Sequence record: PQ356295.1
From: Escherichia phage KKE7M
Reading direction: 5' to 3' (one strand)
DNA: 64,000 nt
Shown here: piece by piece, positions 4,290-40,166 of the stretch
Position numbering within the stretch: the stretch's first letter is position 1
How the letters are laid out: the number at the start of each line of letters is the position of its first letter
Translations under genes and position numbers: made by a program
The notes under the pieces: generated by a model
Told to the model about the DNA's origin: nothing
What the model saw: the letters and a program-made list of their open reading frames with translations, nothing else
Database searches by the model: none

Positions 4290-4316
4290 GCCCCGCCGAA
4301 GCGAGGCTTTATCCAT
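4290..4316 (-). terminator. stem-loop with U-run immediately downstream of tape measure gene
   Basis: minus-strand AAAGCCTCGCTTCGGCGGGGCTTT hairpin followed by TTTATTT. Confidence 0.5.
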
Positions 4317-6295
4317 TAACCACCAGTAGAAGATTGTCCACTGCTTAACTGAAGAGTTAAACCTTGTGAGAAGTTACTAAAACTGGTATTCATTGTTGCA
4401 TCTAGATAATTACTAAAACCATAGCCATCTGGAATAACATTAATCTGGAATGCGTTGTCTGGGATAACAACCGTATTCTCTACACTTAACGGTACTGGAA
4501 CACCTTGGCGTGGTGTTAGCATAGATGCTGTTAAATCAGGTCTATTGTAACCGATACTAGAAGCACTTGGGTTTAAGGCACTAGTTAAGAAACTACTATC
4601 AAAGTCACCTAAAGGTTGATTTTCAGGTTTATGTTGATCTCTTCCAATAGGCCAATAAGCCCAAGGATTACCACCAACCTGTGCATCGTAACCATACTGC
4701 GTACCATTATAATATTCTCTTACAGCTTCTTTAGTATTGTTTTTTGGCCCAACCTTATTTGAAAAATCAAGGAAGTATTTCGCAATTTTTGCAAGGCTAC
4801 TTACAATACTACCAGACATTTCACCAAGACCACGAGCAGCTTCCTGGAAAGTTTTCATATTTTCTGCAAAATCTGGTGCAGATTTTAAACCATCCATAAA
4901 ACCTACAAGTAAGTTATTGGTAAAACCTTCTCCTGCTGCACTAATTTGTGCTCTTAGCTTAACAAAATCTTGTGCTGCTTGGATGTTTTCGTCGTTAAGA
5001 GTTGCACCTGAATTACTTAACATTCTCAGGACTTCCATAAACTCTTTACCATTGTCCAAAAACATACGTTGGTAGTGCATTAAGTCATCACCAAGGTTTT
5101 CCATCAGACGACCAATTTGCGCAGAGTTCATTCCTCTTTTTTGACCTTCATTAACAAGTGCTTGAACAAAGTCTAAAGGTCTGTTCTGGAATTTAGCAAC
5201 ATCTTCTTTTGTCCAACCAAATTGGTTCATGATTTCATTAATACCACTATCTCCACCTTTCCATTTCCCTGATTTTTCATCAAACTCAGAGTGGAGTACA
5301 GTATTACCTAAACGTTCACGAACGTCTTTAATGTTATCAATAGCTTTAATAATACTAGCAGAGTCTACACCGTTCATCTCACCCCAAGTACGCATTGTTA
5401 GGATTGCGTTAGGGTTTACCTGTACGTTCTGACCACCTCTACTAACCATATTAACACGCTCTGCCGATGCAGTAATACCTTCGGCAATTTTGCTTATGCC
5501 TTGATATAAACCAGCACCTAAAAGAGCAGCACCAAACATAGCAGGGTTAAGAGCAATAGCAGCATTACCTACACCAGATAGCTTACGTTGTCTATCTCGC
5601 TGTCTTGCTTCTTTTTCTCTTCTTTGCTGACGTTCGAACTCCTTTCTTTCTCTTTCTCTAACACGCTGTCTTCTTTTATCTTCTGCTTCTTGCAGACGGG
5701 CAATTCTACGTCTAGCTCTCTCTTCATCAAGAAGTTGTGCATTCTTCTCTTTATGAGATCTGCGTAGTTCTTCTAACTGTCTAGCCAAAGTATTATTCAT
5801 TTGTTGGCTAGTGATCACACCTTTACGATAAAGTTCAACAGTTTCTTCTACAATCTTTTTAGATTTTTCTAGAATTCTGCTGTCTGCTTTTGTAAAAGGC
5901 ATAGCTTTAAAACTAAAATCGTCTTGCTTCATATTAGCAAGTGCTGCACGTTTAGCGGCGGCTTCTGCGGCTCTTTCCTCTGGTGTCTTACGTCCTCCAG
6001 AAGATCCAGAACCACCTCTACCACTTCCTCCTTTTCCACCACCACTTGAACCTCCGGTTGGTGGGATTGGTGGAGGATTACCGCCGCCAAGACCTGACAT
6101 TTGCTGCCTTATTCTTTTAGCATACTCTTCCATACTTTTAAACTGACGACGCATTTTAGTCATATTTAAAGATGGTTCAATAGATTCTGTAAAAGTTTTA
6201 AGGTTTTTAATTGCGTCTTTAGTATTTTTTAAACTGTCTTTATCTACAGTAAACGTTACTGTATTCTTAATCTTGGAAGTGTTAATTTCTAACAA
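4316..6295 (-). CDS. tail tape measure protein (candidate)
   Basis: 659 aa, Gly/Ser-rich linker, long Arg/Glu coiled coil, hydrophobic segment, lies between chaperone pair and baseplate genes. Confidence 0.55.
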   Translation of the reverse strand: MLEINTSKIKNTVTFTVDKDSLKNTKDAIKNLKTFTESIEPSLNMTKMRRQFKSMEEYAKRIRQQMSGLGGGNPPPIPPTGGSSGGGKGGSGRGGSGSSGGRKTPEERAAEAAAKRAALANMKQDDFSFKAMPFTKADSRILEKSKKIVEETVELYRKGVITSQQMNNTLARQLEELRRSHKEKNAQLLDEERARRRIARLQEAEDKRRQRVRERERKEFERQQRREKEARQRDRQRKLSGVGNAAIALNPAMFGAALLGAGLYQGISKIAEGITASAERVNMVSRGGQNVQVNPNAILTMRTWGEMNGVDSASIIKAIDNIKDVRERLGNTVLHSEFDEKSGKWKGGDSGINEIMNQFGWTKEDVAKFQNRPLDFVQALVNEGQKRGMNSAQIGRLMENLGDDLMHYQRMFLDNGKEFMEVLRMLSNSGATLNDENIQAAQDFVKLRAQISAAGEGFTNNLLVGFMDGLKSAPDFAENMKTFQEAARGLGEMSGSIVSSLAKIAKYFLDFSNKVGPKNNTKEAVREYYNGTQYGYDAQVGGNPWAYWPIGRDQHKPENQPLGDFDSSFLTSALNPSASSIGYNRPDLTASMLTPRQGVPVPLSVENTVVIPDNAFQINVIPDGYGFSNYLDATMNTSFSNFSQGLTLQLSSGQSSTGG

Positions 6296-6314
6296 GGGTA
6301 ATCCTCCGTATTAC

Positions 6315-6542
6315 TTATGAATCTGGAATTAATTTTTTCATAGCCGTATCCAGTTCTCTTATTGTTCTCTGTTGACCACGTTTAATATCCGCATCTTTAA
6401 CGTGAAGATCTTGTACATAATCTTCGAATGTTAAATATTCATAAATTTTAAGTAGATAATCTACACCATAATTATCTAACGAGGACAAGGTTTCGGAGGT
6501 ATTCTTAATTACCTTACAAAGAATTACTTCATACCATGTCAA
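6315..6542 (-). CDS. tail assembly chaperone -1 frame extension (GT-like)
   Basis: ORF in -1 frame relative to 6590..7072, open upstream across that gene's stop; slippery CCCCTTTTTTC at 6653-6663. Confidence 0.45.
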   Translation of the reverse strand: MTWYEVILCKVIKNTSETLSSLDNYGVDYLLKIYEYLTFEDYVQDLHVKDADIKRGQQRTIRELDTAMKKLIPDS

Positions 6543-6589
6543 GCTAAGGGTTTGTGAGGCAATTTCAATTGCTGATTTAATTGCCGGAC

Positions 6590-7072
6590 TTAACTCTTCG
6601 CTAGAGTCTCTATTCCTTGAAATTGGGTCAACAGTTTTCCGAAACCTCGTTTGAAAAAAGGGGCATAGTTCACCTCAAGAACTTTTGCAGCTAAGTCAAC
6701 AACTAATTCTGGGTGAGCAAAAAACAATTCATCAAAATTATCGGAAACACTGTGACCTGCTTCTGTGTAAACTTCATCTAAAATTTTACGTAAGAATGCG
6801 GCTAAGTTTTTTTCTTCCAGACCACTGAATAACTGGATCAGCGCCATAGCAATACGAGCTTCTAGATCTTCATCTGCTGACATAAGAGCAGTATTATACA
6901 TTGTCATAGGAACAGCTAGTACACTACCTAGTTCTGGAATCCTTTCAAAAACTTTAGTTGGACTCCACTTGAGAACTCTAAATTTTACACTGCGTCCTTC
7001 ATCCAGATCAATTTCAACCATTACTTCTGGACGAGCAAATTTTGCAATAGTATTATCTTTTTGTTGTTCCAT
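6590..7072 (-). CDS. tail assembly chaperone (G-like)
   Basis: 160 aa acidic protein immediately upstream of tape measure; contains slippery run near 3' end. Confidence 0.5.
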   Translation of the reverse strand: MEQQKDNTIAKFARPEVMVEIDLDEGRSVKFRVLKWSPTKVFERIPELGSVLAVPMTMYNTALMSADEDLEARIAMALIQLFSGLEEKNLAAFLRKILDEVYTEAGHSVSDNFDELFFAHPELVVDLAAKVLEVNYAPFFKRGFGKLLTQFQGIETLAKS

Positions 7073-7117
7073 TATTTCCTCTCTCTTTAAAAATAAAGGG
7101 CATTTCTGCCCTTTTTA

Positions 7118-7597
7118 TTACTGAATAGTTAGAGCACTAATAGAGTTAAGTGCGTTAACACCAACACCTACAGTAGAACGAAGTAGGCTTGCATCTTTAA
7201 GACCAATTACCCATTGGTTTTCTTGAATAGTTTCACCAATAGTGTCGTCCGGTTGGCTTTGAATCCAACCAATTGTGCTGATATAATATCCGCGAGGGTC
7301 TTCTAGATATACGCTAAATGCTACTTGACGAGTAGAATACATCGTTTGTGCATAAGCAGCAAGAACTTCGTTTGCTGGGGAAGTACGTTGCAGTGACATT
7401 GTTAGCGTACCTAAACGGTTACGACTAAGCGCCAAGGAAACGTCACCATCAGTACCTGAATATGGGTTGATGATATCGTTAGTTTTGTTAATAACAATTT
7501 TGGTATCTGCGGCGAAACCCCAAGGTTCCCAACCACCCAAAGACAGGATTACTTGAGAAGGATCATAGGCCATTACGCCAGTAAGCATTTTATCCAA
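7118..7597 (-). CDS. tail tube protein (candidate)
   Basis: 159 aa ORF directly after putative sheath gene; TTG start with AGGAG RBS 6 nt upstream. Confidence 0.45.
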   Translation of the reverse strand: MDKMLTGVMAYDPSQVILSLGGWEPWGFAADTKIVINKTNDIINPYSGTDGDVSLALSRNRLGTLTMSLQRTSPANEVLAAYAQTMYSTRQVAFSVYLEDPRGYYISTIGWIQSQPDDTIGETIQENQWVIGLKDASLLRSTVGVGVNALNSISALTIQ

Positions 7598-7655: not shown

Positions 7656-9062
7656 TTATGAAGATACAGTAGAGCTATTGGAATTCTGGCTATTTGCAGT
7701 GCGGTTCGTCAGAACGTTTACCTGCACTTTAACATAGTGGAAGAATCCAGCATATACGTATTCAATAACCATACCATCAACCAAACGTGCATTGATTTGA
7801 GCATCAGTCATATCTGCACGAGATGGGATATAGATAGTAGGTTTAAGGCTTACCAGAAGTCCTGTTTCCTCTGAAGTTACTACCTCATTGGCAATAGAAC
7901 CATTGTTAATACCTACTTGGATTGGGTTTGCAGTAACAGCCTGACGAATCAAAGCAAGACCAGCAGAAGTTGCTCTAACACCACTACCAAGCATAGATTG
8001 CTGTTTGAATAGAGCAAACAGAGATTCTTCTACGCGAGCTTTGAACCACAGAGCGTGTACCACATAGTCAACATAGAAACCACTAACCATGAAGCCATCA
8101 CGGTAGAACAGAACACCGTGTTCTTTACGGTAAATATTACCATTCTGTTGAACGATAAAGTTTTCTGCTGTCTGACCAAGTTTTTCAATCTCGATACCAA
8201 CAAGGGTTTTACCATGCAGGGTAGTAGTACCTGGTGTTGCAGAGCAGATAGAACCAACTACAGCAGCCTCTGGGAACACTGTATCAGCGTTAGTCATCCA
8301 CAATGCCATACAAGTGTTATTGTAGCCCATATCACCTAAGCGTTCTAGAATGTTATCTTCTTCTTTAGTTAGAACACCTGGTTGCGAGGTAGAGAAGAAA
8401 TACACTTTATCATGCTCTTCTACATAACCTGCTAGATCGATAATATCTTGTTCTGCGTGAGAATCAGATAGTAACCAGAACCAACTGTTTTCATAGTCTG
8501 CAATTTTAGCAATATCCTCTAAGATATCATTTGCATATTCTACTTTAGTTGTGAATCCTGAACTATCCATAGTAGCGTATTTACCTGCAACTGGGGTTAC
8601 AGTGATAACACTACCATCGTTTGACACAGTGAAGAATTCTTTATACACCATGTCTGCGTTGATCATTTCTGTTAAACCAACAACAATCTCTTGCGCAGTT
8701 GCAGTATCATCGGCAACAAACTTGAAGTCCTTGCTTTTTGAATTTGCTTTAATAGTGATAACGTAAGTTGCACTATCTTCAACTACTGGAGTTAGAGTTG
8801 TTTTAGAAACATCACGCTTACCGACGATAACTTGTTCCGGTGCGAACAGACCGTCAAATAGTAGTTTTGCCATTTTATAAGCTGGATCGGCAGTGCCAAA
8901 ACCTGCTTGCAGAAGTGCGTCTGAAGAAGTGAAATAATCTACAAGATTGCCAGTAACGTTATGCCCTGTAAGAATTAGAGGGATATCAAACTGTGTTTCA
9001 CTAATTGAAGTAGCACCGTAGGTAAGGGTTACGGAAACTACCTTATCACGAAAAGTTGCCAT
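7656..9062 (-). CDS. tail sheath protein (candidate)
   Basis: 468 aa ORF upstream of tube-sized gene and chaperone/tape measure set; size and order typical of contractile tail. Confidence 0.45.
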   Translation of the reverse strand: MATFRDKVVSVTLTYGATSISETQFDIPLILTGHNVTGNLVDYFTSSDALLQAGFGTADPAYKMAKLLFDGLFAPEQVIVGKRDVSKTTLTPVVEDSATYVITIKANSKSKDFKFVADDTATAQEIVVGLTEMINADMVYKEFFTVSNDGSVITVTPVAGKYATMDSSGFTTKVEYANDILEDIAKIADYENSWFWLLSDSHAEQDIIDLAGYVEEHDKVYFFSTSQPGVLTKEEDNILERLGDMGYNNTCMALWMTNADTVFPEAAVVGSICSATPGTTTLHGKTLVGIEIEKLGQTAENFIVQQNGNIYRKEHGVLFYRDGFMVSGFYVDYVVHALWFKARVEESLFALFKQQSMLGSGVRATSAGLALIRQAVTANPIQVGINNGSIANEVVTSEETGLLVSLKPTIYIPSRADMTDAQINARLVDGMVIEYVYAGFFHYVKVQVNVLTNRTANSQNSNSSTVSS

Positions 9063-20359: not shown

Positions 20360-20435
20360 TGGTCGTGGTAAACGGAGTCGAACCGTTGTTTCTCGATTAT
20401 CGGTCGAGTGTACTAACCATCTGTACGATACCACA
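20360..20435 (-). tRNA. tRNA, anticodon GAU (Ile) by hand fold
   Basis: 7 bp acceptor, T-arm AACGG-TTCGACT-CCGTT, anticodon loop CCGATAA, CCA encoded; C at position 33 is unusual. Confidence 0.5.
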
Positions 20436-20440
20436 ATAAT

Positions 20441-20523
20441 TGGCAGCAAGGTGAGGAATCGAACCCCTTGATCTATGGTTTGGAGCCATATTGAGTACCA
20501 TACTCTTTTAAATCTACCCAGCT
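20441..20523 (-). tRNA. tRNA-like, anticodon CCA (Trp), atypical D region
   Basis: clean anticodon arm TATGG-CTCCAAA-CCATA and T-loop TTCGATT, but 26 nt between acceptor and anticodon stem and imperfect acceptor pairing. Confidence 0.35.
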
Positions 20524-20581
20524 ATGAGTTCCTTGAAGTGTCAATGTAACTTAATCATTACACCAGAAGGGAGGTATTTAG

Positions 20582-20660
20582 TGGAGGCGGGAATCGGATT
20601 TGAACCGATGATCTCCAGCATATGAAACTGGCGAGGACGACCAGACTCCTCTATCCCGCG
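20582..20660 (-). tRNA. tRNA-Met (CAU), initiator-like
   Basis: acceptor CGCGGGA with 1-72 mismatch as in bacterial initiator tRNA, loop TTCATAT, T-loop TTCAAAT, CCA encoded. Confidence 0.6.
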
Positions 20661-20675
20661 CAATCTGTAGTAATT

Positions 20676-20760
20676 TGGTAGCTAAGGTGAGACTCGAACT
20701 CACAATCCCTTGGGGCAATACGTTCTAAGCGTATCGTGTATACCATTCCACCACTTAGCC
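20676..20760 (-). tRNA. tRNA-Leu (UAG)
   Basis: class II fold with long variable arm, anticodon loop CTTAGAA, T-arm GTGAG-TTCGAGT-CTCAC, CCA encoded. Confidence 0.65.
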
Positions 20761-20837
20761 ATAATAAGTACACCACTGTAAGAAGCCTCAATGTGCTATT
20801 GACAGTTAACCAAGTCTACTCCTTGGATGGTGTTATT

Positions 20838-20912
20838 TGGTGCAGAGAGATGGTAACGATCCATCCTTTCTACCTTTTCAGGGTAGCACTAATCCGTCTC
20901 AGCTATCTCTGC
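20838..20912 (-). tRNA. tRNA-Phe (GAA)
   Basis: perfect acceptor GCAGAGA/TCTCTGC, anticodon arm CTACC-CTGAAAA-GGTAG, unusual T-loop ATCGTTA. Confidence 0.6.
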
Positions 20913-20917
20913 AAATT

Positions 20918-20993
20918 TGGTCAGTGCGGCAGGACTCGAACCTGCGACCTGAAGCGTCCAAGGCTCCCACGCTACCAACTGCGCTACGCACTG
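20918..20993 (-). tRNA. tRNA-Pro (UGG)
   Basis: perfect 7 bp acceptor, anticodon loop CTTGGAC, T-loop TTCGAGT, CCA encoded. Confidence 0.65.
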
Positions 20994-21000
20994 TAAATCT

Positions 21001-21075
21001 TGGCTGGAGATCTAGGAATCGAACCTAGTCATCACGACTTCAAAGGCCGTTGCCTTCCCACTAGGCTAATCTCCA
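21001..21075 (-). tRNA. tRNA-Gln (UUG)
   Basis: perfect acceptor TGGAGAT/ATCTCCA, anticodon loop CTTTGAA, T-loop TTCGATT, CCA encoded. Confidence 0.65.
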
Positions 21076-21127
21076 ATAAAACTAAAAATCACTTAAAAAG
21101 AACCGCTAGAGTTTGAAGGAGAAAACC

Positions 21128-21154
21128 ATGAGCGAAAAGAGAAATTTTCTCTAG
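21128..21154 (+). other. 8-codon mini-ORF (MSEKRNFL) with strong RBS inside an 8 bp inverted repeat
   Basis: GAAGGAGAAAACC-ATG; flanked by CGCTAGAG (21104-21111) and CTCTAGCG (21149-21156); lies between two tRNA genes. Confidence 0.25.
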
Positions 21155-21174
21155 CGATTCCATTTAAATAATCT

Positions 21175-21249
21175 TGGAGCGAGTAACAGGACTTGAACCT
21201 GCACCTGGAGGGTGGAAACCTCATATGCTACCATTAACACTATACCCGC
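21175..21249 (-). tRNA. tRNA-Gly (UCC)
   Basis: acceptor GCGGGTA with one G-U, anticodon loop TTTCCAC, T-loop TTCAAGT, CCA encoded. Confidence 0.6.
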
Positions 21250-21260
21250 TTAACAATATT

Positions 21261-21290
21261 ACTCTAACATATTATTAGCCCCTTTGTCAA
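21261..21290 (-). promoter_or_regulatory. promoter candidate for tRNA transcript (TTGACA N18 TAGAGT), overlapping a hairpin
   Basis: minus-strand TTGACA at 21290-21285, TAGAGT at 21266-21261, about 12 nt upstream of the tRNA-Gly 5' end; hairpin 21277-21296. Confidence 0.35.
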
Positions 21291-21304
21291 GAGGCTTTTG
21301 ATAT

Positions 21305-21634
21305 TTATTTTAAAATAGTAGATGCACCACGTCTGTTTAGATATGCAACAGTAAAGTCCAAATCACCTATTTCTTCAGGTTCCCACTGACCTTCTAAGCC
21401 ATAGCAAGAACAATGATATGCGTGTACTTCATAAAACAGAGATGTTTTCATATCATAAAAATAAACGTGAGATTCACCTTCATAATATGCACAGTCATAA
21501 GTGGCAGAAAGAATTACAATGTTATCCTTATCTAACTCTACTTCATAATATCTTTCAACATCTTCGATATCATCAAAACCATCGAAAACATTGATGTTAA
21601 AATATTTCTCTAACTCTTTTTCTGTCACATACAC
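21305..21634 (-). CDS. hypothetical protein embedded in tRNA cluster
   Basis: 109 aa acidic ORF with AAAGGAG RBS (GTG start likely); no recognisable domain. Confidence 0.45.
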   Translation of the reverse strand: MYVTEKELEKYFNINVFDGFDDIEDVERYYEVELDKDNIVILSATYDCAYYEGESHVYFYDMKTSLFYEVHAYHCSCYGLEGQWEPEEIGDLDFTVAYLNRRGASTILK

Positions 21635-21651
21635 TCCTTTAGAGTTAAAAT

Positions 21652-21726
21652 TGGTGCTCCCACAAGGACTCGAACCCTGATAAGTTGCTTACAAGGCAAC
21701 CGTAATAGCCGTTATACGATAGGAGC
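21652..21726 (-). tRNA. tRNA-Thr (UGU)
   Basis: acceptor GCTCCTA/TGGGAGC, anticodon arm GTTGC-CTTGTAA-GCAAC, T-loop TTCGAGT, CCA encoded. Confidence 0.6.
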
Positions 21727-21732
21727 AATACT

Positions 21733-21809
21733 TGGACTCGACAGGATTCGATACCTGCAATTCCAGAAGCCTATTGGCGACTGGGGGTTTACCTTAACTC
21801 TACAAGTCC
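21733..21809 (-). tRNA. tRNA-like element without a canonical anticodon arm (possible pseudo-tRNA)
   Basis: 7 bp acceptor GGACTTG/CGAGTCC and T-arm with 8 nt loop TATCGAAT, but the 44 nt core does not fold into D and anticodon arms. Confidence 0.3.
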
Positions 21810-21816
21810 ATAATTC

Positions 21817-21901
21817 TGGCGATGGATCAAGGATTTGAACCTTGCTAGAACTTTCGTTCACGGATTAACAGTCCGTCGCCCAACCACTAGGCCAATCCAT
21901 C
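21817..21901 (-). tRNA. tRNA with anticodon GUU (Asn) but class II-like 15 nt variable arm
   Basis: perfect acceptor GATGGAT/ATCCATC, anticodon arm ACGGA-CTGTTAA-TCCGT, variable arm GAACGAAAGTTCTAG, T-loop TTCAAAT, CCA encoded. Confidence 0.5.
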
Positions 21902-21908
21902 TTTAATT

Positions 21909-21995
21909 TGGTGCAGGTAGTTGGACTCGAACCAACGAAGCCCCGAAGGGCAAGAGATTTACAGTCTCCAGCAATTGCCGCTATGCGATACCTAC
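21909..21995 (-). tRNA. tRNA-Tyr (GUA)
   Basis: class II fold, anticodon loop CTGTAAA, long variable arm with GCCC/GGGC stem, T-loop TTCGAGT, CCA encoded. Confidence 0.6.
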
Positions 21996-22000
21996 GTGTT

Positions 22001-22075
22001 TGGTACATCGTGAAGGATTCGAACCTTCGCTCCCTTGATTAAAAGTCAAGTGCCTTACCGCTTGGCTAACGATGC
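22001..22075 (-). tRNA. tRNA-Lys (UUU)
   Basis: acceptor GCATCGT/ACGATGT, anticodon arm CTTGA-CTTTTAA-TCAAG, T-loop TTCGAAT, CCA encoded. Confidence 0.65.
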
Positions 22076-22435
22076 ATACTCTTTACACCACCGTGTATGT
22101 CCAGCATAAGCCTTTGTACTATGGAATACTGCTCCGCAAACACACACCGTGGTTCTAATTCTGTTTCCCATGTCTTGGGAAATTCTTGTCTTCTTCATGT
22201 GACAAGCATGACACAAAAGTTGACATTTGGCAAGTTCTTCTTGCCATTTAGCCTCCGAACATGAACTCATTCGACTAATATAAAACTTCTTCTCGCTTGA
22301 ATCTTTATGATCAAATTCCAAGTCATCTACAGACCCACAATTAACACATTTACCTCCAAGCTGGAGGATTGCGGAAGCTCTTCGCTTCTGCCACCGAGTT
22401 TTCATGTATTCCCGCATATAATCATTACTTGGCAT
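22055..22435 (-). CDS. HNH homing endonuclease
   Basis: CVNCGS...EFDHKD...LLCHACH motif set; AGGAGG RBS; 3' end overlaps first 21 nt of tRNA-Lys. Confidence 0.7.
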   Translation of the reverse strand: MPSNDYMREYMKTRWQKRRASAILQLGGKCVNCGSVDDLEFDHKDSSEKKFYISRMSSCSEAKWQEELAKCQLLCHACHMKKTRISQDMGNRIRTTVCVCGAVFHSTKAYAGHTRWCKEYASLAKR

Positions 22436-22582
22436 ACATCCTCCTCGTATAAATTATCTTTAAAATAGCCAGTGTTTGCGGCACTTAGCTATGAAGTATT
22501 GGGGTATCGGTAAAGTGGTTGCCGCCACTTGCCGAAGATTTACTCTGCTAAAGTAAGAGTACAAGCTACATTAAAGATAACT

Positions 22583-22668
22583 TGGCGGTAGATGTAGGAC
22601 TTGAACCTACACGCCGTTTCCGACGACAGTTTAGCAAACTGTTGTGGCTACCATTTCACCAATCTACC
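22583..22668 (-). tRNA. tRNA-Ser (GCU)
   Basis: perfect acceptor GGTAGAT/ATCTACC, anticodon arm ACAGT-TTGCTAA-ACTGT, long variable arm, T-loop TTCAAGT, CCA encoded. Confidence 0.65.
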
Positions 22669-22713
22669 ATTTTTAATTATTCAAAACAACCTGAATCTGT
22701 TACTAATTGAATT

Positions 22714-22803
22714 TGGAGGAAGATAATGGAGTCGAACCATCACCGTATCGCTACAATGGGCCAGGGTTCAAACCTGGTTGCGCACCGCTGCGCCCTACCT
22801 TCC
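22714..22803 (-). tRNA. tRNA-Ser (UGA)
   Basis: anticodon arm CCAGG-TTTGAAC-CCTGG, long variable arm, T-loop TTCGACT, CCA encoded. Confidence 0.6.
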
Positions 22804-22867
22804 CGTTATCATACTTTAAATCTAACATAAAACTATCTTGCTTGTCAAGTAGTTTTTAAAAACTTTT

Positions 22868-22949
22868 TGGCCGGGGTGACAGGATTCGAACCTGCATACT
22901 CCAATTACTCGGTTAACGCCTGATTAGAAGTCAGGTGAGATACACCCCG
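22868..22949 (-). tRNA. tRNA-like, anticodon UCU (Arg), apparently lacking a D arm
   Basis: perfect acceptor CGGGGTG/CACCCCG and canonical T-arm, but only 7 nt between acceptor and anticodon stem (CCTGA-CTTCTAA-TCAGG) and 23 nt before the T-arm. Confidence 0.4.
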
Positions 22950-23030
22950 TTTTCACAGTAACTATAACAAAAAACTAAGTAAATGTCAAGATATTTTTAC
23001 TAAAATTATTATTTAAATTGAAGCCTAGGT

Positions 23031-23116
23031 TGGTGCAAGTGGAGGGATTCGAACCCTCAATCATTTAAGCGTTGCGTTTTAAGCACAATGTGTATCACCA
23101 ATTCCACCACACTTGC
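23031..23116 (-). tRNA. tRNA-Leu (UAA)
   Basis: perfect acceptor GCAAGTG/CACTTGC, anticodon loop CTTAAAA, long variable arm, T-arm GAGGG-TTCGAAT-CCCTC, CCA encoded. Confidence 0.65.
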
Positions 23117-23147
23117 ATATAGGAGATGCATAGCACCTCCTTTTAAA

Positions 23148-23223
23148 TGGTGGTTCCCCAGGGTTACAATCCCTGCCCTCGACACTTATGAGGTGTGCGC
23201 TCTCGTCAGTGAGCTATGGAACC
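23148..23223 (-). tRNA. tRNA with anticodon CAU (elongator Met or Ile2), unusual T-loop
   Basis: anticodon loop CTCATAA, D-stem GCTC/GAGC, T-loop ATTGTAA between CAGGG/CCCTG, CCA encoded. Confidence 0.5.
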
Positions 23224-33494: not shown

Positions 33495-34217
33495 ATGATC
33501 GAGAATTTTTTCAAACAAGTAAAAGTGGACAATAGCTTCTTTATCAAAGCTGCCGATCAAATTGTTGCTTGGAATGCTAAGGCACGTGGTGGAGTAACTC
33601 CAGAGTTTACTCAAGAGATGTTTGAAGCTCAACTTTCTTTTGTACGAGAAGAACTTAAAGAGTTCCAAGCAGCAGCACAGGAAAATGATCACGTTGAATT
33701 ACTTGATGCAGCAGCAGATATTTTTGTGGTAGCATCCTACCTGGCGTTTATGTTCTTTGGTAAAGAAGGTGTTGATAAAGCTCTGGAAATGCCGACAGGA
33801 GATGTTCTGGCAGAAAACATCTACGATGTTATCATTGAATTTGATAAAATGGTAGAAAATGACTTGCAATTTGCCCTAATGTCTCTTACACTTACACGTA
33901 TGGCACGAGATACTTTGGTACGTTCTGTTTATAACGAGAAGAAGGTTATGCGTGAAGTGTTGAATAGCAATGAGTCCAAGTATCCTACCAAGAAGCAACT
34001 CCTGGCTATTTGGGAAACTAAGGATATTATTGAAGCTCTTGAAAAAGAATGTGATGCTATCGAGATGCGAAGCAAAGATCGTGCAGAAGGTTCTTATACT
34101 GGGGTACACGCTGTATATAACGAAGTTCAAAAGGTGTATGTATTCTTTGATGACAAAGGTAAAATTATGAAACCATCTACCTTTGTTAAACCTAATATCG
34201 CAGCAATCATTGCTTAA
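33495..34217 (+). CDS. MazG-like nucleotide pyrophosphohydrolase (candidate)
   Basis: N-terminal EExxEF...ELLDAAADI all-alpha NTP-PPase pattern. Confidence 0.4.
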   Translation: MIENFFKQVKVDNSFFIKAADQIVAWNAKARGGVTPEFTQEMFEAQLSFVREELKEFQAAAQENDHVELLDAAADIFVVASYLAFMFFGKEGVDKALEMPTGDVLAENIYDVIIEFDKMVENDLQFALMSLTLTRMARDTLVRSVYNEKKVMREVLNSNESKYPTKKQLLAIWETKDIIEALEKECDAIEMRSKDRAEGSYTGVHAVYNEVQKVYVFFDDKGKIMKPSTFVKPNIAAIIA

Positions 34218-39592: not shown

Positions 39593-40166
39593 TTGGGATT
39601 TAGTAATAGCTCCTGCGGATATAGAATGGTTAAATTGGTTAAATGCGGTAAGTAGATCTAATATCAAATTTGATAAGACACATAAAACTGTGCATTATGA
39701 TATTACGAAATATTTCCCTGATTTTAAAAAGCAATTTGGTGTAGATCCTTACTCTTTTTGGGATAACCAACATCTATATGATACTATGGGCGTAGTACCT
39801 AATAGTACAGATGTTGTTCATCGTATAATTGCAAATGGAGCTAATATATCTATAGCAAGCCACACTAAGGGTGGACACCTTAGTTCTAAATATAGACACG
39901 TAACACGGTCTTTAGATAAAGTGGATTTTAGTAGAACATCTGGTAATGGTTTTTTCGCAACAAAAGAAAAATACTTATTACCTTGCGACGTAACTATTGA
40001 TGATAGGGCTGAAAATCTTGTCCTATTTCCAGATGAAACGTTGAAAATATATTTCAACACTATTTACGAAGATCCGTACTTGGAAGAGTTAAAGAAACTT
40101 CCTAATGTAATTATCACTGGTTTAGATAATCAGTGGGAAGAAATTGAAAGTATTTTACTACCTTAA
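39576..40166 (+). CDS. 5'(3')-deoxyribonucleotidase-like HAD hydrolase (candidate)
   Basis: ORF 39462..40166 in track; likely ATG 39576 with AGGAGAAATA RBS; N-terminal DWD motif. Confidence 0.35.
   Translation: MRLVCDWDLVIAPADIEWLNWLNAVSRSNIKFDKTHKTVHYDITKYFPDFKKQFGVDPYSFWDNQHLYDTMGVVPNSTDVVHRIIANGANISIASHTKGGHLSSKYRHVTRSLDKVDFSRTSGNGFFATKEKYLLPCDVTIDDRAENLVLFPDETLKIYFNTIYEDPYLEELKKLPNVIITGLDNQWEEIESILLP

What the first reader, a model, noticed from the sequence alone, without database searches (positions are those of the whole stretch)
6315..7072. Programmed -1 frameshift candidate in the tail assembly chaperone pair
The 160 aa chaperone-like ORF ends at 6590. The -1 frame is open from at least 6659 through 6315 and overlaps it. 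A slippery run CCCCTTTTTTC (containing C_CCT_TTT and T_TTT_TTC heptamers in the zero frame) lies at 6653-6663, about 60 nt before the zero-frame stop. This is the standard G/GT arrangement just upstream of the tape measure gene.
Basis: seen in the sequence. Interest (0 to 1): 0.45.

Follow-up and report, generated by a model that had tools for sequence, protein, structure and literature searches.

The report
Phage tail-chaperone programmed −1 frameshift
This is the standard phage trick of making a short and a long tail-assembly chaperone from one gene by a ribosome slipping back one base on CCCCTTTTTTC; the site is real and invariant in over 60 related phage genomes, but it is ordinary biology that database records for this phage group do not annotate.

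Summary
On the minus strand a 160-aa tail assembly chaperone gene (7072-6590, Pfam Phage_TAC_15) lies between the tail tube gene and the tape measure gene. A −1 frame of 119 codons (6674-6315) overlaps its last 82 nt. In the zero frame the run reads GCC CCT TTT TTC, giving two overlapping slippery heptamers, C_CCT_TTT (6662-6656) and T_TTT_TTC (6659-6653). Slipping at either gives the same 252-aa fusion (...NYAPFF|QTRFR...).

The window is a phi92-like E. coli myovirus (Stephanstirmvirinae). In 52 distinct relative sequences the two Phe codons are always TTT TTC, and the preceding codon (Pro, Cys or Ser) always ends in T. Other conserved Phe codons in the same gene vary freely. The extension has no usable start codon or ribosome-binding site, yet evolves as −1-frame coding.

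No convincing downstream RNA structure was found. An SD-like GAGGTGA lies 10 nt upstream, as in dnaX.

The same site occurs at the homologous position in FelixO1-like phages. A 2025 paper proposed this frameshift for FelixO1-like and Pakpunavirus-like phages.

Verdict: a new member of a known kind. The mechanism is inferred; no protein data exist.

The parts
7656..9062 (-). Tail sheath gene (468 aa), context
   Evidence: phrog_205 tail sheath E=3e-104; PF11863
7118..7597 (-). Tail tube gene (159 aa), immediately upstream of the chaperone
   Evidence: PF11681 KPP10_Orf10, phrog_280; annotated as tail tube in relatives
7095..7114 (-). Terminator-like hairpin (AAAGGGCAGAAATGCCCTTT followed by ATTTTT) between the tube and chaperone genes
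   Evidence: Consensus scan only; function not tested
6590..7072 (-). Chaperone gene 'G' (zero frame), 160 aa, 18.1 kDa. ATG at 7072 is preceded by GAGG at 7081-7078; stop TAA at 6592-6590
   Evidence: PF21822 Phage_TAC_15 E=6.7e-22 and phrog_3840 E=1e-49
6670..6676 (-). SD-like GAGGTGA (7-nt complement of the 16S rRNA 3' tail), 10 nt upstream of T_TTT_TTC; candidate upstream stimulator
   Evidence: an SD-like match of 6 nt or more lies 10-13 nt upstream in 29 of 48 distinct relatives, against 1.2% of control windows in the same genes. The Glu codon here is GAG in 40 of 48, against 30% GAG overall in these genes. The stimulatory role is an inference
6675..6677 (-). Last stop (TGA) of the −1 frame upstream of the slip site; this sets the 5' limit of the frameshift window
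6653..6663 (-). Slippery run CCCCTTTTTTC, containing C_CCT_TTT (6662-6656) and T_TTT_TTC (6659-6653) in the zero-frame register
   Evidence: T_TTT_TTC is invariant in 52 of 52 distinct sequences. C_CCT_TTT is invariant in 20 of 20 of the window's clade
6590..6652 (-). Dual-coding overlap: the C-terminal tail of G (KRGFGKLLTQFQGIETLAKS) in the zero frame and the GT linker (QTRFRKTVDPISRNRDSSEE..) in the −1 frame
   Evidence: The G tail is conserved in the zero frame across clades (GFG.L..). The RFR motif is conserved in the −1 frame. Substitutions peak at zero-frame third positions
6315..6653 (-). −1-frame extension 'T' (112 codons from CAA at 6653-6651, stop TAA at 6317-6315). Together with codons 1-140 of G it gives a GT fusion of 252 aa, 28.8 kDa
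   Evidence: phrog_16039 E=2e-44 and phrog_10409 over fusion residues 168-230; aligns with the −1 ORFs of all relatives
6315..6542 (-). The 75-aa 'hypothetical protein' ORF (TTG start) as annotated in GenBank relatives; here read as the 3' part of T, not a separate gene
   Evidence: no SD upstream, and the conserved block starts before it
4316..6295 (-). Tape measure protein gene (659 aa, TTG start preceded by GGAGGA)
   Evidence: phrog_16051 E=0; sequence

Best explanation
This is a programmed −1 ribosomal frameshift of the lambda G/GT type in the tail assembly chaperone gene of a phi92-like E. coli myovirus.

Most ribosomes translate 7072-6590 and make the 160-aa chaperone G. A minority slip back one base when the P and A sites hold CCU-UUU and/or UUU-UUC within CCCCUUUUUUC (6663-6653). 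tRNA-Pro and tRNA-Phe re-pair perfectly in the −1 frame. These ribosomes continue to 6315 and make a 252-aa GT protein (...VLEVNYAPFF-QTRFRKTV...).

By analogy with lambda, G and the G part of GT coat the tape measure protein encoded just downstream. The T domain recruits the tube protein, and the G:GT ratio is fixed by the slip efficiency.

The slip is probably helped by an SD-like GAGGTGA 10 nt upstream (as in dnaX) rather than by a downstream RNA structure.

Shown: the gene anatomy, family membership of G, the coding nature of the −1 frame, and nucleotide-level selection on the heptamers. Inferred: that the shift is ribosomal, its efficiency, the SD role, and the functions of the two domains.
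For: 1. Anatomy: the ORF, the −1 frame and the register of both heptamers.

2. Identity and position: G matches PF21822 Phage_TAC_15 at 78.8 bits against a cut-off of 22. It lies between the tube and tape measure genes.

3. Conserved arrangement: 18 of 18 GenBank-derived sequences (window included) and 43 of 43 IMG/VR loci have a −1 ORF of 94-149 codons overlapping the end of G, with T_TTT_TTC in register. These span Stephanstirmvirinae, Vequintavirinae and Aeromonas phages.

4. Nucleotide-level selection: in 52 distinct sequences the slip Phe codons are TTT (52/52) and TTC (52/52). Two other conserved Phe columns in the gene split 29:21 and 20:31. The preceding codon is CCT, TGT, TCT or AGT (three amino acids) and always ends in T. 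In the window's clade the codon before CCT is GCC, TCC or GGC, always C-ending (20/20), although GGC is only 15% of Gly codons elsewhere in G.

5. The −1 frame is coding without its own start. The fusion proteins align through the site. The stretch 6592-6543 shows 67/57/123 substitutions at −1-frame codon positions 1/2/3, the same pattern as the annotated ORF. Of 46 distinct relatives in which the conserved motif could be located, 14 have no ATG, GTG or TTG before the conserved T block; in the rest the candidate starts are scattered and nearly all lack an SD.

6. G is also made. Its zero-frame tail after the slip site is conserved across clades.

7. Heptamer efficiency: H_HH.U_UU.Y heptamers are among the most efficient in E. 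coli. U_UU.U_UU.C and C_CC.U_UU.U give more than 0.1% shifting without any stimulator (PMC4066793).

8. Homologous site in outgroups. FelixO1 and Sf14 have NFGSFF with T_TTT_TTC and a 106-107 codon −1 ORF. ICP1 has T_TTT_TTT. A Rheinheimera phage has lost FF but has lambda's G_GGA_AAG three codons further on. hhalign puts the FelixO1 and K8 chaperones on the window profile at 97% and 91% probability, with the motif aligned.

9. A −1 frameshift with a GTTTTT motif was proposed for those sister families (PMC12846349).
Against: - There are no protein, ribosome-profiling or reporter data. Everything here is comparative.
- No significant or conserved downstream hairpin exists in the window's clade (z about −1.2 to +0.9). 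Efficiency may therefore be low, although lambda G/GT also works without one (my own knowledge).
- An extra U inserted by RNA polymerase at the same U6 run would give exactly the same protein. Sequence analysis cannot separate the two mechanisms.
- The SD-like element is absent from several lineages (phiTE-like, KB57-like, Aeromonas). It also partly coincides with a conserved Leu-Glu-Val motif.
- The IMG/VR search pattern required ...NY[GA][CPS]FF at the protein level, so that sample is biased towards loci with Phe-Phe, though not towards particular codons.
- The sequences are phylogenetically related, so the counts are not independent events.
- No record seen in GenBank, and none of 45 database homologues (all 151-175 aa), represents the fusion.
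Confidence: 0.85

Rival explanations
1. Transcriptional slippage. RNA polymerase inserts one extra U in the U6 run of a fraction of the mRNAs, and normal translation of those mRNAs then gives the same 252-aa GT protein.
For: The site is a homopolymer (T6 preceded by C4). Inserting one U gives GCC CCU UUU UUU CAA, which reads APFFQ, identical to the frameshift product (from the sequence). UUUUUUU runs are under-represented in E. coli genes in all frames, possibly for this reason (PMC4066793). Slippage on heteropolymeric T/C runs is documented (PMC5009743).
Against: The run is exactly six T in all 52 distinct sequences and never longer. Efficient bacterial RNA polymerase slippage usually needs runs of about 8-9 or more (my own knowledge). 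The Rheinheimera outgroup has replaced the run by G_GGA_AAG, a ribosomal heptamer with no long homopolymer. The enriched upstream SD-like element makes sense only for a ribosomal mechanism.
Confidence: 0.07
2. There are two independent genes, as annotated in GenBank. The 75-aa ORF 6542-6315 is translated on its own from TTG 6542, and no fusion protein is made.
For: Relatives are annotated this way, as a 'hypothetical protein' of 38-88 aa. phrog_16039 is a 72-aa family built from such calls.
Against: TTG 6542 has no SD (upstream sequence CAAACCCTTAGC). It falls on a conserved Leu inside the conserved block. The 44 start-less −1 codons between the upstream stop and TTG 6542 (6674-6543) include a stretch, 6592-6543, that evolves as −1-frame coding. 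Fourteen relatives have no start codon at all before that block, and annotated starts differ from genome to genome. This reading does not explain the invariant heptamer.
Confidence: 0.04
3. The shift happens at another site in the 82-nt overlap, for instance the tetramer T_TTC in GGT TTC (6644-6641). This would give ...APFFKRGF-RKTV...
For: U_UU.C is the second-best tetramer in E. coli (PMC4066793). GGTTTCG is conserved 6-9 nt downstream of the heptamer in most relatives.
Against: Tetramers need a strong stimulator and are about 10-fold weaker than heptamers, and no such stimulator is evident. rV5-like phages have GGT TTA at this position. Conservation of GGTTTCG is explained by dual coding: GF(G/A) in G and RFR in T.
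Confidence: 0.03
4. Artefact: a homopolymer sequencing error has split one continuous gene, or the downstream frame is open by chance.
For: Homopolymer runs are error-prone in some sequencing chemistries.
Against: More than 60 independent assemblies share exactly T6. The zero-frame tail of G and its stop are conserved. No −1 open run of 100 codons or more occurs among 2,225 runs in this window's genes.
Confidence: 0.01

Closest known systems
Phage lambda gpG/gpGT and the conserved tail-chaperone frameshift of dsDNA phages (Levin 1993; Xu, Hendrix & Duda 2004, as cited in PMC5009743 and PMC8785237)
   Same: Two overlapping ORFs lie between the major tail/tube gene and the tape measure gene. The downstream ORF is in the −1 frame and has no start of its own. 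[quoted passage not shown]
   Different: The heptamer differs: T_TTT_TTC (plus C_CCT_TTT) instead of G_GGA_AAG. The chaperone belongs to a different sequence family (PF21822). The host virion is a large contractile-tailed myovirus. A candidate upstream SD stimulator is present.
Tail-chaperone −1 frameshift with an invariant GTTTTT motif proposed for Vandenendeviridae (Pakpunavirus, phage Adele) and Andersonviridae (FelixO1/Moogle-like), PMC12846349 (Dec 2025)
   Same: The chaperones are homologous (hhalign 97% to FelixO1 and 91% to K8). The T-run sits at the homologous N[YF]G.FF position. A −1 ORF of about 106-130 codons is routinely mis-annotated as a separate hypothetical protein.
   Different: That paper did not analyse this locus in Stephanstirmvirinae or Vequintavirinae. 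In the window the base before the T-run is C, not G, which creates a second overlapping heptamer. Pakpunavirus K8 has GTT TTT T in another register, with no canonical X_XXY_YYZ heptamer.
E. coli dnaX (tau/gamma) −1 frameshift
   Same: An internal SD-like sequence lies about 10 nt upstream of the heptamer: GAGGTGA at 10 nt here, and an SD at about 10 nt in dnaX (my own knowledge).
   Different: dnaX uses A_AAA_AAG plus a strong downstream stem-loop and shifts at about 50%. Here no downstream stem-loop is supported and the efficiency is unknown.
IS3/IS1-family transposase frameshifts that use U_UU.U_UU.C (PMC4066793)
   Same: The same heptamer is used for a −1 fusion protein in enterobacteria.
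   Different: Those IS elements usually rely on a downstream pseudoknot or hairpin, and the proteins are unrelated.

Membership tests
Phage tail assembly chaperone G/GT pair with programmed −1 frameshift (Xu, Hendrix & Duda 2004 type) | Two overlapping ORFs located between the major tail (tube) gene and the tape measure gene | tested here: met
   Tube 7597-7118, G 7072-6590, −1 ORF 6674-6315, tape measure 6295-4316
Phage tail assembly chaperone G/GT pair with programmed −1 frameshift (Xu, Hendrix & Duda 2004 type) | The first ORF is a recognisable tail assembly chaperone | tested here: met
   PF21822 Phage_TAC_15 at 78.8 bits (cut-off 22); phrog_3840, phrog_1613 and phrog_1688, all 'tail assembly chaperone'
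Phage tail assembly chaperone G/GT pair with programmed −1 frameshift (Xu, Hendrix & Duda 2004 type) | The downstream ORF is in the −1 frame, lacks its own start and RBS, and is conserved as protein | tested here: met
   The first possible start is TTG 6542, with no SD. The conserved block and the third-position substitution bias extend upstream of it. Fourteen relatives have no start at all
Phage tail assembly chaperone G/GT pair with programmed −1 frameshift (Xu, Hendrix & Duda 2004 type) | A slippery X_XXY_YYZ heptamer in register within the overlap, conserved among relatives | tested here: met
   T_TTT_TTC in 52 of 52 distinct sequences; C_CCT_TTT in 20 of 20 of the window's clade
Phage tail assembly chaperone G/GT pair with programmed −1 frameshift (Xu, Hendrix & Duda 2004 type) | The fusion protein is made at a low fixed ratio to G and is required for tail assembly | not testable with these tools
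   Needs western blot or mass spectrometry, and phage genetics
Phage tail assembly chaperone G/GT pair with programmed −1 frameshift (Xu, Hendrix & Duda 2004 type) | The G domain binds the tape measure protein and the T domain binds the tube protein | not testable with these tools
   The single-sequence AlphaFold2 model of GT was too poor to use (pLDDT 43). No solved homologue was found
Andersonviridae/Vandenendeviridae tail-chaperone frameshift (PMC12846349) | The short chaperone form is homologous to the FelixO1 and Pakpunavirus chaperones | tested here: met
   hhalign probability 97% (E=9e-11) to FelixO1 and 91% (E=1e-6) to K8, with the slip motif aligned
Andersonviridae/Vandenendeviridae tail-chaperone frameshift (PMC12846349) | [quoted passage not shown] | tested here: not met
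   The window has C before the run (CCT TTT TTC). The T-run itself is at the homologous position. Vequintavirinae relatives (TGT TTT TTC) and FelixO1 (AGT TTT TTC) do contain GTTTTT
dnaX-type −1 frameshift signal | SD-like sequence 10-14 nt upstream of the heptamer | tested here: met
   GAGGTGA at 6676-6670, 10 nt upstream; enriched in relatives, 60% against 1.2% background. This is presence only; function is untested
dnaX-type −1 frameshift signal | A stable stem-loop a few nt downstream of the heptamer | tested here: not met
   Folding energy of the downstream 45-100 nt is no better than shuffles in the window clade, and no shared structure is seen

The most novel reading that the evidence does not exclude
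Across this whole supergroup of myoviruses (phi92-, rV5-, FelixO1- and ICP1-like), the tail-chaperone frameshift may be tuned by an internal Shine-Dalgarno sequence 10-13 nt upstream, as in dnaX, rather than by a downstream RNA structure. In the window's clade a tandem double heptamer may add to this. The phage's own adjacent tRNA-Phe(GAA) and tRNA-Pro(UGG) genes decode exactly the slip-site codons and might also contribute. This would be a conserved, structure-free way of setting the G:GT ratio.
Probability: 0.3. Interest if true: 0.45.

Novelty: new member of a known kind. Interest (0 to 1): 0.3.

Why it matters
- **Annotation.** None of the roughly two dozen GenBank/RefSeq records inspected in this phage supergroup joins the two ORFs. 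The T part is called a 'hypothetical protein' of varying length, or is missed altogether.
- **Phage engineering.** Many of these phages are therapy or biocontrol candidates. Recoding or synonymous 'optimisation' of CCCCTTTTTTC would probably abolish tail assembly.
- **Recoding biology.** The family offers a deep natural alignment of a T_TTT_TTC site that persists down to about 25% protein identity. It includes one case of replacement by G_GGA_AAG and a possible upstream SD stimulator. This makes it a convenient test set for structure-independent −1 frameshifting in bacteria.

The finding does not change how tail chaperones are understood.

Tried and rejected
- **Downstream stimulatory structure.** I folded 45, 70 and 100 nt after the heptamer in the window and 13 relatives. 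z-scores were about −1.3 to +1.5 in most, and no shared helix appeared. Only the distant ABPH49 and Aeromonas sequences have a decent hairpin.
- **Rfam.** The scan of 6200-7200 gave only sub-threshold hits on the opposite strand (SraG-like at 34 bits against 50; a CRISPR-DR at 25 against 35) and no frameshift element.
- **Structure.** The sequence search of the PDB with the fusion gave nothing below E=0.17. The single-sequence AlphaFold2 model of GT had mean pLDDT 43 and was not used for a fold search.
- **Fusion proteins in databases.** A search of 5.8 billion proteins for annotated or naturally in-frame G-T fusions returned 45 homologues, all 151-175 aa and G only.
- **Literature.** The rV5 genome paper does not mention a frameshift or a chaperone. 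Searches combining phi92, phAPEC8, PVP-SE1 or Vequintavirinae with 'frameshift' found only the 2025 Adele paper on sister families. The Vladimirov 2022 paper on T4-like chaperones is not held.
- **Other frames and sites.** A +1 shift is excluded, because that frame closes after 7 codons. Two other in-register T_TTT_TTC sites in the window lead to −1 ORFs of only 7 and 14 codons.

Full report
**Observation**

All genes of this region are on the minus strand. They run in the order tail sheath (9062-7656), tail tube (7597-7118), a 160-aa ORF (7072-6590), an open −1 frame, then a 659-aa tape measure gene (6295-4316).

- The 160-aa ORF ends with TAA at 6592-6590.
- The frame one base behind it has 17 stops between 7055 and 6675, the last being TGA at 6677-6675. 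It is then open for 119 codons to TAA at 6317-6315.
- The +1 frame is closed throughout.
- The run CCCCTTTTTTC lies at 6663-6653. The zero frame reads GCC CCT TTT TTC, so C_CCT_TTT (6662-6656) and T_TTT_TTC (6659-6653) are both in the X_XXY_YYZ register. The second ends 60 nt before the zero-frame stop.

A −1 slip at either heptamer, or an extra U in the mRNA, gives the same 252-aa product of 28.8 kDa...VLEVNYAPFF|QTRFRKTVDPISR....

**Is it more than chance?**

In 82 crude genes of this 37% G+C window, the 2,225 open runs of the −1 frame average 7 codons. The maximum is 69, and none reaches 100. Heptamers of the efficient H_HHU_UUY class occur in register 14 times in 17,932 codons, so about 0.02 would be expected in the 27-codon overlap.

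**What the genes are**

The window is 99% identical to Escherichia phage vB_Eco_J-01 and about 98.5% identical to Justusliebigvirus (phi92-like) phages of the Stephanstirmvirinae.

- The 160-aa protein matches Pfam PF21822 (Phage_TAC_15) at 78.8 bits against a cut-off of 22, and three PHROG families named 'tail assembly chaperone'.
- The −1 extension matches phrog_16039 and phrog_10409, both of unknown function. The latter match covers fusion residues 168-230, which lie partly upstream of the only possible start codon.

**Comparative test**

I collected 17 GenBank relatives and 43 IMG/VR loci. The GenBank set covers Stephanstirmvirinae, six genera of Vequintavirinae including rV5, SSE121, GAP31, phiTE, KB57 and Hena1, an Acinetobacter phage and an Aeromonas Plateaulakevirus.

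- In every one, a −1 ORF of 94-149 codons overlaps the end of the chaperone gene, and T_TTT_TTC is in register within the overlap.
- In 52 distinct nucleotide sequences the two Phe codons at the site are TTT (52/52) and TTC (52/52). Two other conserved Phe columns of the same gene split 29:21 and 20:31.
- The preceding codon is CCT, TGT, TCT or AGT. These encode three different amino acids, and all end in T.
- The neighbouring conserved Tyr, and the mostly-Gly codon next to it, vary freely at the third position.
- Within the window's own clade the codon before CCT is GCC, TCC or GGC, C-ending in 20 of 20, although GGC is only 15% of Gly codons elsewhere in these genes. C_CCT_TTT therefore also appears to be maintained there.

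One caveat applies to the IMG/VR sample. One of its two search patterns required NY[GA][CPS]FF at the protein level. That sample is biased towards Phe-Phe, but not towards particular codons. The sequences are also related by descent, so the counts are not independent events.

**The extension is translated from upstream**

- Fusion proteins built in silico align through the junction (NYG[CPS]FF | [QHR]..RFR). A conserved block of T (A....A....SL.W[YF][DE]) begins before the window's only candidate start, TTG 6542. That TTG is itself the conserved Leu of the block and has no SD.
- Between the G stop and that TTG (6592-6543), substitutions among 16 clade members fall 67/57/123 on −1-frame codon positions 1/2/3. 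The annotated ORF shows the same pattern, 316/218/541.
- Of 46 distinct relatives in which the conserved motif could be located, 14 have no ATG, GTG or TTG at all before the conserved block. In the rest the candidates are scattered and nearly all lack an SD.
- G itself is also a real product. Its zero-frame tail after the slip site (KRGFGKLLTQF..., GFG.L motif) is conserved across clades. In the overlap, substitutions peak at zero-frame third positions.

**Stimulators**

I found no convincing downstream structure. Folding energies of the 45-100 nt after the heptamer are no better than shuffles in the window clade, and no helix is shared. Rfam has nothing relevant.

Upstream, GAGGTGA (6676-6670) is a 7-nt perfect complement of the 16S rRNA 3' tail, 10 nt from T_TTT_TTC.

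- A match of 6 nt or more at 10-13 nt is present in 29 of 48 distinct relatives, against 1.2% of control windows in the same genes. FelixO1 and Sf14 have a 5-nt GGAGG at 13 nt, just under that cut-off, and ICP1 has AAGGAG at 11 nt.
- The Glu codon involved is GAG in 40 of 48, against 30% GAG overall.

This is the geometry of the dnaX upstream stimulator (my own knowledge). I treat the role as an inference. Some lineages lack the element, and it overlaps a conserved Leu-Glu-Val motif.

**Is the heptamer competent?**

Sharma et al. 2014 (PMC4066793) measured all heptamers in E. coli. H_HH.U_UU.Y is among the most efficient classes. U_UU.U_UU.C and C_CC.U_UU.U give more than 0.1% shifting even without a stimulator. 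U_UU.U_UU.C is used by IS elements.

**Wider family and prior knowledge**

I reached more distant phages through the sheath protein and examined their chaperone loci.

- FelixO1 and Sf14 (Ounavirinae) have AAC TTC GGA AGT TTT TTC with a 106-107 codon −1 ORF.
- ICP1 has T_TTT_TTT with a 128-codon −1 ORF.
- Pakpunavirus K8 has GTT TTT T, which is not a canonical heptamer.
- A Rheinheimera Barbavirus has lost Phe-Phe but carries lambda's G_GGA_AAG three codons downstream, with a 126-codon −1 ORF. The frameshift has outlived the particular slip site.

hhalign places the FelixO1 and K8 chaperones on the window's profile at 97% and 91% probability, with the motif aligned.

A December 2025 paper on Pseudomonas phage Adele (PMC12846349) proposed exactly this conserved −1 frameshift for Vandenendeviridae and Andersonviridae. 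It describes an invariant GTTTTT motif and notes that the downstream ORF is routinely mis-annotated. It did not analyse this locus in Stephanstirmvirinae or Vequintavirinae.

None of the roughly two dozen GenBank/RefSeq records I opened joins the two ORFs. A search of 5.8 billion proteins returned only G-length homologues of 151-175 aa. The rV5 genome paper does not mention the frameshift.

**Mechanism and rivals**

The best-supported reading is a lambda G/GT-type programmed −1 ribosomal frameshift (confidence 0.85).

- **Transcriptional slippage** at U6 would give the same protein and cannot be excluded from sequence (0.07). The run is never longer than six T, one outgroup uses a non-homopolymeric heptamer, and an SD element is enriched upstream. 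All three favour the ribosome.
- **Independent initiation** of the 75-aa ORF, as annotated, is contradicted by the start-codon and substitution data (0.04).
- **A shift at the T_TTC tetramer** (6644-6641) is possible but weaker and not conserved in rV5-like phages (0.03).
- **A sequencing artefact** is excluded by more than 60 concordant assemblies and by the conserved G tail (0.01).

The functional roles follow from the lambda work summarised in PMC5009743 and were not tested here. In that model G and GT coat the tape measure protein and T recruits the tube protein. The structural attempt failed: the single-sequence AlphaFold2 model had pLDDT 43 and there is no PDB homologue.

**Verdict**

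It is a new, currently unannotated member of a well-known kind of recoding signal, at a site homologous to one recently proposed for sister phage families.

Interest is modest (0.3). The added value lies in annotation, in a caution for phage engineering, and in a possible dnaX-like upstream stimulator.

Noticed in passing
window 20360-23223 (minus strand): A cluster of 15 tRNA genes. It includes adjacent tRNA-Phe(GAA) at 20838-20912 and tRNA-Pro(UGG) at 20918-20993, which are the tRNAs that decode the slip-site codons CCU, UUU and UUC. Any effect on frameshift efficiency is speculation.
   Followed up: no
window 7114-7095 and 4310-4287 (minus strand): Terminator-like hairpins with T tails lie between the tube gene and the chaperone gene, and just after the tape measure gene. 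The first could lower chaperone and tape measure expression relative to sheath and tube.
   Followed up: no
L066:5265-5271 (Rheinheimera phage barba_12-7F): In this distant relative the Phe-Phe T-run is gone (HYGCLT). A lambda-type G_GGA_AAG heptamer lies three codons downstream, in register, followed by a 126-codon −1 ORF. The slip site has turned over while the frameshift is retained.
   Followed up: partly
L064:7700-7720 (Pseudomonas phage K8): The Pakpunavirus chaperone has TCG GTT TTT TCT. The T-run is in a different register and there is no canonical X_XXY_YYZ heptamer, although a 116-codon −1 ORF follows. How the shift works there is unclear.
   Followed up: no
GenBank MG065656 (Campylobacter phage C3), MG065682 (A112b), MG065676 (A116): Records labelled as Campylobacter jejuni phages match the query as well as the E. 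coli Justusliebigvirus records do (C3), or score the same as the rV5-like records (A112b, A116). This suggests contamination or host mislabelling.
   Followed up: no
L005:1974-3074 (Escherichia phage V18, RefSeq NC_041937): The tape measure gene is annotated as two overlapping CDSs (1974-2813, and from 2810 onwards). In rV5_ev168 it is one gene. The likely cause is an indel or sequencing error in V18.
   Followed up: no
L012:1970-3070 (phiTE) and L018:1867-3024 (Aeromonas 4L372XY): One or two extra genes (147-nt and 951-nt CDSs in phiTE, a 1,158-nt CDS in 4L372XY) are inserted between the chaperone pair and the tape measure gene. In phiTE an annotated terminator follows T. This breaks the usual tight T-to-tape-measure adjacency.
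   Followed up: no
window 33506-33512 and 39950-39956 (plus strand): Two further in-register T_TTT_TTC heptamers occur inside genes. Their −1 frames close after 7 and 14 codons, so they are probably chance occurrences.
   Followed up: partly
window 6990-7117 (plus strand): A sub-threshold Rfam hit to SraG sRNA (34.1 bits against a gathering score of 50, E=8e-4) lies on the strand opposite the chaperone gene and spans the terminator-like hairpin. It is probably spurious.
   Followed up: no
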